64,000 nt of DNA, taken from assembly GCF_030013595.1 (NCBI RefSeq), contig NZ_CP122768.1; one strand, 5' to 3'. The translations under genes and the position numbers were made by a program. The stretch is from Escherichia coli (lineage in GTDB: Bacteria > Pseudomonadota > Gammaproteobacteria > Enterobacterales > Enterobacteriaceae). Under the pieces are notes generated by a model. The model had not been told where the DNA came from and did not search any database. It worked only from the letters and a program-made list of their open reading frames with translations. The first letter of the stretch is position 1, and every line of letters starts with the position of its first letter. Positions 4,805 to 6,138 of the stretch are shown here, piece by piece.

Positions 4805-5188
4805 ATGTCTGAACCTCTAACCGCTGGCGTTGCTGCTGGCTCGGCGGGGGTGACGTTTGCTGCGTTATTTCCTGAGGCAACACCTGCAGTGATGATCTGT
4901 GCGCTGGCAGGCGCAGCTCTCTATGTGTTGTCATCCGGGCAGCATCGATTCTGGAAGCAGGTTATTTTCGCACTCATTTCGTTTGTTGGCGGTGTGTATT
5001 GCGCTGAGACAGCATCAGCCATCATTACCGGTATTCTGAATGCGGTGCTGAGTCACCTGAACCCTCCCGTAACAGTAAAAGTCTCTCCCGCCATTGGTGC
5101 ACTGGTTGCATCAGTAATCAGCGTTACATCACTGTTGCGGATCATGTCACAAGCTCGTTTATGGAAATCAGATAAGGGGATGAAATAA
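4805..5188 (+). CDS. Putative holin (multi-helix small membrane protein)
   Basis: Hydrophobic segments; first gene of the lysis cassette, upstream of the endolysin. Confidence 0.5.
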   Translation: MSEPLTAGVAAGSAGVTFAALFPEATPAVMICALAGAALYVLSSGQHRFWKQVIFALISFVGGVYCAETASAIITGILNAVLSHLNPPVTVKVSPAIGALVASVISVTSLLRIMSQARLWKSDKGMK

Positions 5189-5460
5189 TGACCCTGCACT
5201 CTGTCCTCATCAATGCCAATGCAATTATCTGTCTGATGCTGGCACTGCGGTTGATGTTTTTTCAAAAAACAGGCCGCTATCGTTTTTTTATCTCACTAAC
5301 TGCTTACCTGGCGATTCTGTCTGCTGCGTGGATAGCCCTACGAATTTTTTACGGGAAATATACGCAGGTTGATCCCGCAGAGTTCTTTCTCAACCTCACC
5401 ATCTGTATTGCTGTCTGGCGGGCACGAGGAAATATTTCAAAAATAACAGGAGACAGGTAA
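5188..5460 (+). CDS. Small membrane protein of the lysis cassette (holin/antiholin-like)
   Basis: Two hydrophobic helices; translationally coupled (ATGA) to flanking lysis genes. Confidence 0.4.
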   Translation: MTLHSVLINANAIICLMLALRLMFFQKTGRYRFFISLTAYLAILSAAWIALRIFYGKYTQVDPAEFFLNLTICIAVWRARGNISKITGDR

Positions 5461-5939
5461 TGACCGATCCTAAATGGCTAATTGAGGCACGAAAAAATCT
5501 CGGCATCCGGGAAATGAAAGGGAAGCAACATGCTGCAGAAATTGTGCAGTACTGGAAAGATATCAAACGCGGCGGTATTAAGGATGACGAAACACCATGG
5601 TGCGCCGCCTTCACCGGAGCAATGCTGGAACGTGTTGGTATTCGCTCAACGCGTTTTGAGTCTGCGAATTCTTATCTCGATTGGGGTAATGAACTGAAGG
5701 AGCCCGCCTATGGATGCATTGCTATTCTGTCTCGGTCTGGCGGTGGCCACGTTGGTTTTGTTGTCGGGAAAAATGCCGCCGGGGATTTAATGATTTTGGG
5801 TGGCAACCAGGCAGACGCAGTGAATATCAAAGCGTTTCCGAGCTCACGCGTTACCGGCTATCGCTGGCCAACAGGTCAAACGGATGTTCCACAATCACTT
5901 CCATTGGTGAATGCTGAGAAATCTATCTCAGAAGCGTAG
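5460..5939 (+). CDS. Endolysin, peptidase-type (NlpC/P60- or CHAP-like, TIGR02594-type)
   Basis: Conserved Cys/His signature (PWCAAF ... GGGHVGFVVG) recalled for phage cell-wall peptidases; position after holin. Confidence 0.6.
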   Translation: MTDPKWLIEARKNLGIREMKGKQHAAEIVQYWKDIKRGGIKDDETPWCAAFTGAMLERVGIRSTRFESANSYLDWGNELKEPAYGCIAILSRSGGGHVGFVVGKNAAGDLMILGGNQADAVNIKAFPSSRVTGYRWPTGQTDVPQSLPLVNAEKSISEA

Positions 5940-5946
5940 GTAAAAT

Positions 5947-6138
5947 GTGAAAAAACTCCTCTTAGCTGTCGCGTTCTTCACGCTGGCAGGCTGCACACAT
6001 TCGACATACACCGAAGCGACTCGCGCTGACGGCAGCAGCATTAAACACGTGACGATCGCGCCGGGTACGAAGATTACTACTGCGAACGGTGGTTGTATTG
6101 ATTCAACCGGTGTCGTAACGGCTTGTCAGGCAAAGTGA
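5947..6138 (+). CDS. Small lipoprotein (63 aa), possible o-spanin or exclusion lipoprotein
   Basis: Signal peptide with lipobox LAGC; last gene of the lysis cassette; GTG start. Confidence 0.45.
   Translation: MKKLLLAVAFFTLAGCTHSTYTEATRADGSSIKHVTIAPGTKITTANGGCIDSTGVVTACQAK

What the first reader, a model, noticed from the sequence alone, without database searches (positions are those of the whole stretch)
4805..6138. Lysis cassette with two small membrane proteins, a peptidase-type endolysin and a lone lipoprotein (no obvious i-spanin)
Four co-directional genes are translationally coupled. The lipoprotein (5947..6138) lacks a partner inner-membrane spanin gene and has no C-terminal TM segment, so it may be an o-spanin with an unrecognised embedded partner or a different kind of lipoprotein.
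Basis: inference. Interest (0 to 1): 0.3.

Follow-up and report, generated by a model that had tools for sequence, protein, structure and literature searches.

The report
Lone lipoprotein in phage spanin slot
An E. coli prophage lysis cassette lacks the usual two-part "spanin" genes that break the outer membrane and instead carries one small, strongly conserved outer-membrane lipoprotein, which sits in the same position behind unrelated lysis genes in other phages and so may be an undescribed way to open the outer membrane.

Summary
Window 4805-6138 is the late lysis cassette of an E. coli lambda-head/P2-tail prophage. It follows antiterminator Q and a tR'-like terminator. It holds two holins (PF16931, PF05449), a TIGR02594/CHAP peptidase endolysin and a 63-aa lipoprotein (lipobox LAGC, Thr at +2).

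No i-spanin, u-spanin or second o-spanin exists in any frame of the cassette or anywhere in the prophage.

The lipoprotein is a real gene: dN/dS is about 0.1 with synonymous sites saturated. It belongs to a tiny family found only in Enterobacteriaceae and matches no Pfam, NCBIfam or PHROG spanin model.

- **Position:** in 22 loci examined it is the last gene of the lysis module. It follows four unrelated endolysin types and several holin types.
- **Exclusivity:** it never occurs with a spanin.
- **Slot replacement:** the same holin pair and the same endolysin type occur elsewhere with canonical Rz/Rz1 pairs in that slot.

The best reading (about 0.5) is a partner-less outer-membrane lysis protein that acts on a conserved host envelope component.

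The main rival is an accessory or moron lipoprotein, because the lysis/terminase junction is an accessory-gene hot spot. An embedded i-spanin is excluded.

Function is untested. Complementation of lambda Rz/Rz1 amber mutants would decide it.

The parts
4021..4692 (+). Late-gene antiterminator Q, which defines the start of the late operon upstream of the cassette
   Evidence: PF06323 E=1e-38 and phrog_304 E=2e-76. PGAP calls it 'bacteriophage antitermination protein Q'.
4757..4780 (+). Terminator-like hairpin between Q and the first holin, in the position of lambda tR'
   Evidence: 10-bp stem followed by a T run. The role is inferred by analogy with lambdoid late operons and was not tested.
4805..5188 (+). 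Holin-family membrane protein 1 (127 aa, several hydrophobic segments)
   Evidence: PF16931 Phage_holin_8 E=2e-11 and phrog_198 'holin' E=3e-34. Its stop overlaps the next start (TAATG).
5188..5460 (+). Holin-family membrane protein 2 (90 aa, 3-TM type)
   Evidence: PF05449 Phage_holin_3_7 E=9e-19 and phrog_217 'holin' E=4e-31. Its stop overlaps the next start (TAATG).
5460..5939 (+). Soluble peptidase-type endolysin (TIGR02594 / CHAP-like), with no signal peptide or SAR segment
   Evidence: TIGR02594 at 137 bits against a cutoff of 70.55. CHAP E=1e-5. Cys in ETPWCAAF and His in GGGHVGFVV are conserved in homologs L044 and L026. 547 phage records hold homologs.
5947..6138 (+). Lone outer-membrane lipoprotein (63 aa precursor, 48-aa mature peptide), the subject of the finding. 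It occupies the position where spanin genes normally lie.
   Evidence: - **Signal:** lipobox LAGC with Thr at +2.
- **Known families:** no hit in Pfam, NCBIfam or PHROG spanin models.
- **Family:** about 70 clusters with a near-invariant mature peptide.
- **Selection:** dN/dS about 0.1.
- **Composition:** GC 0.50, the same as the cassette.
- **Position:** last lysis-module gene in 22 loci.
6139..7100 (.). Low-GC accessory island that marks the downstream boundary of the cassette. It is not part of the cassette. It holds an 82-aa ORF at 6240-6488 (+), a terminator at 6497-6516, and a 156-aa ORF at 6562-7032 (-).
   Evidence: GC falls from 0.50 to 0.34-0.40 directly after the lipoprotein stop. 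The ORF matches phrog_16949. The block 6139-6520 is about 93% identical to a Salmonella prophage, where it follows a different cassette.

Best explanation
The cassette is a functional-type holin/endolysin lysis module in which the spanin slot is filled by a single small outer-membrane lipoprotein. This lipoprotein most likely carries out or enables the outer-membrane step of lysis without a phage-encoded inner-membrane partner.

Proposed sequence of events:
1. Q-antiterminated late transcription reads through tR' and expresses the four genes together. This is inferred from the layout.
2. The lipoprotein precursor is exported. It is lipidated at Cys16 and sorted by Lol to the inner leaflet of the outer membrane. 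This is inferred from the LAGC lipobox and the non-Asp +2 residue.
3. Its 47-residue periplasmic domain is beta-rich and Thr/Gly-rich, with two conserved Cys. It engages a conserved host envelope component. This is inferred because the mature peptide is nearly invariant while every phage-encoded neighbour varies.
4. After the holin triggers and the peptidase endolysin destroys the murein, the pre-loaded lipoprotein makes the outer membrane fail. This step is a hypothesis.

The nearest functional analogy is a colicin-release (BRP) lipoprotein that destabilises the outer membrane on its own. There is no homology to that family.
For: 1. **No spanin in the prophage.** No i-spanin, o-spanin or u-spanin was found in the cassette or the whole prophage.
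2. **Constant position behind unrelated lysis genes.** The lipoprotein family is always co-directional and is the last gene of the lysis module.
   - TIGR02594/CHAP endolysins: window, L026, L028, L031, L051, L053, L060.
   - Peptidase_M15_4: L005, L030, L052, L056-L063.
   - Peptidase_M15_3, in a BPP-1-like podophage between the scaffold and capsid genes: L009.
   - GH24 lysozyme: L027, L029.
   - Distant members directly overlap a holin: L037.
   - Sources.
3. **Tight spacing.** The gap to the upstream gene is -11 to +12 nt in most contexts, and no promoter-like site lies in the longer gaps.
4. **Mutual exclusivity.** None of the 22 loci scanned holds a spanin-like ORF, while the scan finds both subunits in the controls. 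Spanins were found in 586 of 677 phage genomes surveyed (PMC6139136).
5. **Slot replacement.**
   - The same PF16931+PF05449 holin pair is followed by a GH108 endolysin plus an overlapped Rz/Rz1 pair in L045.
   - A TIGR02594 endolysin is followed by a DUF2514 i-spanin with an embedded o-spanin in L044.
6. **Strong purifying selection on the mature peptide only.** dN/dS is about 0.1, 18 of 48 positions are invariant, and the signal peptides vary freely.
7. **Composition.** The gene's GC matches the cassette, and the low-GC accessory island starts right after its stop.
8. **A related phage was recovered.** A record deposited as an Escherichia phage genome (vB_EcoM-705R4) carries the same four-gene cassette with no spanin.
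Against: - There is no functional data of any kind.
- The lysis/terminase junction is also a hot spot for accessory genes, so 'last lysis gene' is also 'first accessory gene'. Acb2/Tad1-like anti-defence genes, ParB/TAGT genes and low-GC morons directly follow the lipoprotein.
- In L051 two copies flank an Acb2-like gene.
- A lone, diverged copy survives next to frmR in Superficieibacter.
- A Citrobacter cryptic prophage keeps the gene. Both cases fit a host-beneficial moron equally well.
- In some Peptidase_M15_4 contexts the gap is 127-140 nt.
- No mechanism is known by which a neutral 47-residue beta-rich lipoprotein alone could breach the outer membrane.
- There is no sequence similarity to colicin lysis proteins or to T1 gp11.
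- The AF2 model is only moderate (pLDDT 71.5) and the fold search found nothing.
- The prophage copy in this window is itself defective, with IS elements in terL and in the early region.
Confidence: 0.5

Rival explanations
1. It is an accessory (moron-type) lipoprotein unrelated to envelope disruption. Possible roles include superinfection exclusion or receptor masking, serum or envelope-stress resistance, or anti-defence. On this reading it merely sits at the lysis/packaging junction, and these phages are spaninless for other reasons.
For: - The junction is an accessory-gene hot spot. A low-GC island lies directly downstream in the window, Acb2/Tad1-like genes are adjacent in L051 and L052, and ParB/TAGT genes follow in Salmonella.
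- Duplicated copies flank Acb2 in L051.
- The gene persists in decayed prophages of Citrobacter and Superficieibacter.
- The 3' end of the gene is a recombination junction with an accessory block shared between E. coli and Salmonella.
- Phage lipoproteins such as Bor, Cor and Llp are known morons or exclusion factors (established knowledge).
Against: - It never co-occurs with spanins in 22 loci, although an unrelated moron should mostly sit in spanin-bearing cassettes.
- It keeps near-zero spacing to unrelated upstream lysis genes and has no promoter-like site of its own.
- Its GC matches the cassette, not the moron island.
- In the BPP-1-like prophage it lies inside a holin-endolysin block between the scaffold and capsid genes.
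- It is carried by phages with myovirus, siphovirus-like and podovirus structural modules, so receptor masking tied to one receptor is unlikely.
Confidence: 0.25
2. It is a true o-spanin that works with an unrecognised inner-membrane partner. The partner could be a host protein, a holin, or a phage protein of non-canonical topology encoded far away.
For: - It has every o-spanin feature except the partner: small size, an OM-sorted lipobox, conserved Cys residues that could form disulfides, and position after the endolysin.
- Kongari et al. explicitly note that other topologies could serve as i-spanins. They also report that 31 genomes had a lipoprotein without a linked i-spanin (PMC6139136).
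Against: - No type II membrane ORF was found in the cassette or the whole prophage, nor in 22 related loci.
- Holin families differ between contexts, so no phage-encoded membrane protein is common to all.
- A mature length of 47 residues, mostly beta and with one proline, is unlike known o-spanin families and matches none of the PHROG Rz-like models.
- A host-encoded partner cannot be excluded.
Confidence: 0.15
3. It is a periplasmic-face regulator of lysis, affecting timing or endolysin or cell-wall access, and not the outer-membrane effector.
For: Linkage to lysis genes is equally compatible with a regulatory role.
Against: - Endolysin and holin types vary widely, so a specific regulatory target among phage proteins is unlikely.
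- This reading does not explain the exclusivity with spanins.
Confidence: 0.07

Closest known systems
Two-component spanins (lambda Rz/Rz1 type), o-spanin subunit
   Same: It is a small OM-sorted lipoprotein encoded last in the lysis cassette after the endolysin, and it has conserved periplasmic cysteines. Homologous cassettes carry Rz/Rz1 pairs in exactly this slot (L044, L045).
   Different: There is no i-spanin gene, whether embedded, overlapped, adjacent or elsewhere in the prophage. It matches no spanin HMM. It has one proline in 47 residues, against the proline-rich Rz1 (the latter from established knowledge). It is predicted to be beta-rich.
Unimolecular spanin (T1 gp11)
   Same: A single gene in the spanin slot, an N-terminal lipobox, and a predicted beta-strand periplasmic domain.
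   Different: It has no C-terminal transmembrane segment, so it cannot bridge to the inner membrane. It is about half the length of gp11. No similarity was found (hhalign probability 1.6%).
Colicin/bacteriocin release lysis lipoproteins (BRP, Pfam Lysis_col)
   Same: A lone, very small lipoprotein rich in Thr, Ser and Gly. BRPs by themselves permeabilise or destabilise the outer membrane (established knowledge). This is the best 'works like' analogy.
   Different: There is no homology beyond the signal peptide and lipobox, and Pfam Lysis_col was not hit. The gene lies in a phage late operon, not an SOS-controlled colicin operon. The mature peptide is longer and has two Cys.
Disruptin (phiKT gp28) of spaninless phages
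   Same: It would be a non-spanin solution to the outer-membrane step in a spaninless lysis cassette (10.1101/515445).
   Different: Per its abstract, disruptin is a cationic antimicrobial-peptide-like protein. This protein is a lipid-anchored, near-neutral (about +1), beta-rich peptide.
Lone phage lipoproteins noted by Kongari et al. 2018
   Same: [quoted passage not shown] BPP-1-type phages are listed there as spaninless, and a BPP-1-like Salmonella prophage carries this family.
   Different: That paper did not define this family or show its recurrence across unrelated cassettes. Whether any of their 31 cases belongs to this family was not checked.

Membership tests
Lambdoid holin-endolysin lysis cassette | Late-operon position downstream of antiterminator Q, with a holin gene or genes followed by an endolysin gene | tested here: met
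   Q at 4021-4692, holins at 4805-5460, endolysin at 5460-5939, then the terminase genes.
TIGR02594 / CHAP peptidoglycan hydrolase (endolysin) | Score above the curated NCBIfam cutoff, with the catalytic Cys/His motif | tested here: met
   137 bits against a cutoff of 70.55. ETPWC and GGGHVG are conserved in homologs. Enzymatic activity was not tested.
Two-component spanin (o-spanin) | OM lipoprotein signal: a lipobox with no Asp at +2 | tested here: met
   LAGC followed by Thr. The lipobox Cys is invariant and +2 is T, S, A or M across the family.
Two-component spanin (o-spanin) | Cognate i-spanin gene (type II inner-membrane protein) that is embedded, overlapped or adjacent | tested here: not met
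   All-frame scans of the cassette, the window, the whole prophage and 22 related loci found none. Positive controls L044 and L045 were detected.
Two-component spanin (o-spanin) | Sequence membership in a known spanin family | tested here: not met
   No PHROG 'Rz-like spanin', Pfam or NCBIfam hit. The only weak PHROG hits (E about 0.003) cover the signal peptide.
Two-component spanin (o-spanin) | Required for outer-membrane disruption; complements an Rz/Rz1 defect | not testable with these tools
   This needs a lambda Rz(am)Rz1(am) complementation assay.
Unimolecular spanin (T1 gp11 type) | N-terminal lipobox plus a C-terminal transmembrane domain in one polypeptide | tested here: not met
   The lipobox is present. 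No hydrophobic C-terminal segment exists in any of about 75 family members. A profile search of 1.8 billion representatives found no longer versions. hhalign against gp11 gave probability 1.6%.
Colicin release lysis protein (BRP, PF02402) | Sequence homology to Lysis_col | tested here: not met
   No Pfam hit at E<=0.1. hhalign aligns only the signal peptide and lipobox. The reference BRP sequence was verified against plasmid annotation.
Colicin release lysis protein (BRP, PF02402) | OM permeabilisation by the lipoprotein alone, dependent on OmpLA | not testable with these tools
   This needs expression in wild-type and pldA hosts.
Disruptin (phiKT gp28) | Cationic, antimicrobial-peptide-like protein without a lipid anchor | tested here: not met
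   The mature peptide has 4 basic and 3 acidic residues, is lipid-anchored, and is predicted to have four short beta strands.

The most novel reading that the evidence does not exclude
This family is a new, fourth class of phage outer-membrane disruptor, after two-component spanins, unimolecular spanins and disruptins. It would be a partner-less OM lipoprotein that breaks or pre-weakens the outer membrane by acting on a conserved host envelope component. It would also be modular enough to be swapped between unrelated holin-endolysin cassettes of Enterobacteriaceae phages.
Probability: 0.4. Interest if true: 0.8.

Novelty: new variant of a known kind. Interest (0 to 1): 0.58.

Why it matters
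How spaninless phages of Gram-negative hosts get through the outer membrane is an acknowledged open question. About 13% of surveyed genomes are spaninless, and 31 of them have an unexplained lone lipoprotein (PMC6139136).

This work defines a concrete, conserved candidate in the most tractable hosts, E. coli and Salmonella. It is present in about 8% of complete E. coli genomes (446 of 5426), including ST131 strain EC958. It shows clean comparative evidence: mutual exclusivity with spanins, and slot replacement.

That makes the question directly testable with the standard lambda Rz/Rz1 complementation platform.

If the lipoprotein works alone, it would point to a conserved host outer-membrane vulnerability. 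It would also give annotators a new lysis-gene class. If it does not, it is a widespread late-expressed prophage lipoprotein of unknown role, and these common prophages still lack an explained outer-membrane step.

Tried and rejected
- **Embedded or hidden i-spanin.** Alternative-frame ORFs in the endolysin 3' region (5530-5697 and 5714-5917) have no TMD and are not conserved in the 65%-identical endolysins of L026 and L028. Rejected.
- **The 156-aa ORF at 6562-7032 on the minus strand as an i-spanin.** It is on the opposite strand, lies in the low-GC island, and is absent from related phages. Rejected.
- **A spanin elsewhere in the prophage.** None was found. The only other lipobox ORF, 27733-28152, matches phrog_890 and sits at the prophage end.
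- **Truncated u-spanin.** The profile search found no longer relatives with a C-terminal TMD. Rejected.
- **Homology to colicin lysis proteins.** Rejected.
- **Structure route.** The AF2 model was only moderate (pLDDT 71.5) and Foldseek against the PDB gave nothing below E=1. Uninformative.
- **Spaninless Vi01-like phages as users of TIGR02594 as endolysin.** This was wrong. In Det7 the domain is part of a 541-aa gp5-like baseplate hub protein.
- **Cassettes of the closest phage endolysin homologs (PM1, PSTCR4).** Uninformative.
- **Genome-contig scan.** It added only E. whittamii and Superficieibacter, plus one spurious hit.
- **Literature.** Searches for a description of this family or of 'orphan o-spanins' found nothing relevant. 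The library does not cover most subscription journals.
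Full report
**1. What is there**

The window is 100% identical to part of the E. coli HCP5S3_I2 chromosome. There it lies in a prophage of about 48 kb, running from an integrase next to tRNA-Leu to a point next to yecA. The prophage has lambda-type head genes and P2-type contractile-tail genes.

The finding's four ORFs exist exactly as described. They follow antiterminator Q (4021-4692; PF06323 E=1e-38) and a terminator-like hairpin at 4757-4780. This is the classical lambdoid late-operon layout.

- Gene 1 (4805-5188) is a holin: PF16931, phrog_198.
- Gene 2 (5188-5460) is a holin: PF05449, phrog_217.
- Gene 3 (5460-5939) is a TIGR02594/CHAP-type peptidoglycan peptidase with no signal or SAR sequence.
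- Gene 4 (5947-6138) encodes MKKLLLAVAFFTLAG|CTHSTYTEATRADGSSIKHVTIAPGTKITTANGGCIDSTGVVTACQAK. It has a canonical lipobox, Thr at +2 (outer-membrane sorting by the +2 rule, which is established knowledge), no second hydrophobic segment, one proline and a net charge of about +1.

The first two gene junctions are TAATG overlaps. The third is a 7-nt spacer with an AGGT overlapping the endolysin stop.

The PHROG label 'baseplate hub subunit and tail lysozyme' for the endolysin is annotation carry-over. In Ackermannviridae the TIGR02594 domain is part of a 541-aa gp5-like hub protein.

**2. Is an i-spanin hidden anywhere?**

I scanned every start codon in all six frames for two things: lipobox ORFs, and ORFs of 60-220 aa with a single N-terminal TMD.

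In the window the only hits in the prophage are the lipoprotein itself, holin 2, and a 139-aa lipoprotein (phrog_890) at the far end of the prophage. The part of the prophage outside the window has none, and PGAP annotates no spanin.

The same scan recovers both subunits in two control cassettes. So the 'no i-spanin' observation holds for the whole phage, not only the cassette.

**3. The lipoprotein is a real, constrained gene of a tiny family**

A search of 5.8 billion proteins found about 70 clusters. Those that carry a source name are from Escherichia, Salmonella and Citrobacter. A profile search of 1.8 billion representatives added only a few more divergent members (P0073, P0075, P0076) and no longer forms. 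A scan of one genome per species found it only in E. whittamii and Superficieibacter.

The signal peptides vary freely, while the mature peptide is nearly invariant: 18 of 48 positions are invariant and mean column identity is 78%. Between copies from different contexts, synonymous sites are saturated (pS 0.6-0.8) while pN is 0.10-0.15, giving a median dN/dS of about 0.095.

It matches no Pfam or NCBIfam model and no PHROG spanin model. AF2 predicts four short beta strands at moderate confidence (pLDDT 71.5), and Foldseek finds nothing.

**4. Context is the informative evidence**

In every locus examined the gene is co-directional with a lysis module and immediately downstream of it. The modules themselves are unrelated to each other:

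- (A) PF16931 + PF05449 holins + TIGR02594: the window, L013-L025, L046.
- (B) A single phrog_126-type holin + TIGR02594: L026, L028, L031, L053, L060; L051 also has a CHAP endolysin directly upstream.
- (C) The same type of holin + Peptidase_M15_4: L005-8, L030, L052, L056-L063.
- (D) Holin + GH24 lysozyme + a KilA-N/ANT gene: L027, L029.
- (E) PF16083 holin + Peptidase_M15_3, inside the structural operon of a BPP-1-like Salmonella podo-prophage, between the scaffold and capsid genes: L009-12.
- (F) Distant members overlapping the end of a PF05106 holin after the tail genes: L037-39.

Spacing to the upstream gene is -11 to +12 nt in most cases. Where it is about 130 nt, no promoter-like site is present.

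None of the 22 loci scanned contains any spanin-like ORF. By contrast, spanins were identified in 586 of 677 phage genomes surveyed, and the spaninless E. coli and Salmonella entries listed there are named phage isolates, most of them Vi01-like (PMC6139136).

**5. Slot replacement**

The holin pair of the window also occurs in another E. coli prophage (L045). There it is followed by a GH108 endolysin and an overlapped i-spanin/o-spanin pair (phrog_1026 E=3e-32; phrog_1275 E=3e-28).

A TIGR02594 endolysin in a P2-like prophage (L044) is followed by a DUF2514 i-spanin (phrog_312) with an embedded proline-rich o-spanin (phrog_11621).

So neither the holins nor the endolysin type makes spanins dispensable. 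In the window's lineage the slot is instead filled by the lone lipoprotein.

**6. Interpretation**

The evidence comprises recurrent tight linkage to non-homologous lysis genes, strict exclusivity with spanins, slot replacement, cassette-like base composition (GC 0.50, against 0.34-0.40 from the first base after its stop), and strong selection on the periplasmic part only. Together these are best explained by a lysis-stage outer-membrane function that needs no phage-encoded partner.

Because the only constant across contexts is the host, the target is most likely a conserved Enterobacteriaceae envelope component. This is an inference.

The mechanism is unknown. The closest functional analogy is the colicin-release lipoproteins, which are also lone small lipoproteins that destabilise the outer membrane. 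There is no homology to them. The protein is also not a u-spanin: it has no C-terminal TMD and no similarity to T1 gp11.

I put this reading at about 0.5.

**7. The main rival**

The lysis/packaging junction is a known landing site for accessory genes, and that is visible here.

- The low-GC island at 6139-7100 follows directly.
- Acb2/Tad1-like anti-defence genes abut the lipoprotein in L051 and L052.
- L051 has two copies flanking such a gene.
- A Citrobacter cryptic prophage and a Superficieibacter remnant retain the gene.
- The window's own gene is mosaic. Its last 25 nt or so, plus the next 380 bp (an 82-aa ORF and a terminator), are about 93% identical to a Salmonella prophage where they follow an M15_4 cassette.

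A moron or exclusion lipoprotein therefore remains plausible (about 0.25). It does not explain the exclusivity with spanins, the minimal spacing, or the lack of promoter-like sites.

An o-spanin with an unrecognised partner, possibly host-encoded, is at about 0.15. A regulatory role is at about 0.07.

**8. Novelty and limits**

Kongari et al. recorded that 31 spaninless genomes carry a lipoprotein without an i-spanin and left the matter open. I found no paper describing this family or its recurrence, but the searchable library is incomplete.

I classify the finding as a new variant of a known kind: a lysis cassette with a non-spanin lipoprotein in the spanin slot. There is a substantial chance (about 0.4) that it represents a new class of outer-membrane disruptor.

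All functional statements are inferences. The prophage copy in this window is itself inactivated by IS insertions, although the cassette is intact and the same cassette is present in 446 of 5426 complete E. coli genomes.

Noticed in passing
window 6105-6520 (compare L061 3670-4075): The lipoprotein gene is mosaic. Positions 5947 to about 6110 match the E. coli 705R4 type. The last 25 nt or so, the 82-aa ORF at 6240-6488 (phrog_16949) and the terminator at 6497-6516 are about 93% identical to a Salmonella prophage, where they follow a Peptidase_M15_4 cassette. A recombination junction therefore lies inside the 3' end of the gene.
   Followed up: partly
window 6139-7100: A low-GC (0.34-0.40) accessory island lies between the lysis cassette and the terminase genes. 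It holds an 82-aa ORF (+), a strong bidirectional terminator-like hairpin, and a 156-aa ORF on the minus strand (6562-7032) with no family match.
   Followed up: partly
window 27733-28152 (+): A second prophage lipoprotein (139 aa, phrog_890 'lipoprotein', E=3e-52) lies at the right end of the prophage after the tail-fibre genes, and looks like a moron.
   Followed up: partly
window ~8840-10050 and 7072-7251: The terminase large-subunit gene is split by an ISVsa5 (IS4-like) insertion. A fragment of a different small-terminase type lies upstream of the intact terS (7633-8199). Two IS3 copies sit in the early region outside the window. This prophage copy is therefore defective.
   Followed up: partly
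L051 4274-4558 and L052 4210-4446: Acb2/Tad1-hairpin (anti-CBASS/anti-Thoeris sponge-like) genes lie directly after the lipoprotein in two Salmonella prophages. In L051 two lipoprotein paralogs (4001-4198 and 4813-5004) flank it.
   Followed up: no
L005-L008 (Citrobacter) and L048 (Superficieibacter electus): A cryptic prophage remnant next to frmR/frmA keeps the holin, the Peptidase_M15_4 endolysin and the lipoprotein intact. The lipoprotein it carries is indexed in 306 blocks of the collection. At the equivalent site Superficieibacter keeps only a diverged lipoprotein copy. This could reflect domestication or slow decay.
   Followed up: no
L037 5426-8204: Microvirus-type genes (REP_ORF2-G2P, Chlamy_scaf, Phage_F capsid) lie 1.2 kb downstream of a siphophage-like holin-lipoprotein pair and a Phd/Fic toxin-antitoxin pair on one metagenomic contig.
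   Followed up: no
L055 2054-3679 (Salmonella phage Det7 gp91): In Ackermannviridae the TIGR02594 domain is an internal part of a 541-aa T4 gp5-like baseplate hub protein. This explains the misleading PHROG label on stand-alone TIGR02594 endolysins.
   Followed up: partly
L035 4447-5394 (NZ_CM149870.1 2154446-2155393, outside the window): The early region of the same prophage carries a gene for an 'LprI family lysozyme inhibitor' protein on the opposite strand.
   Followed up: no
L031 4199-4447: In one E. coli-type cassette the lipoprotein is immediately followed by a second, unrelated 82-aa lipoprotein (phrog_902, E=1e-23) of unknown function.
   Followed up: no
L027 88-249, L029 2462-2623, L062 1733-1894: A conserved 53-aa ORF with two hydrophobic segments sits in these lysis modules: after the holin and before the GH24 lysozyme in L029, before the lysozyme in L027, and after a small ORF in L062. 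It might be an antiholin-like partner.
   Followed up: no
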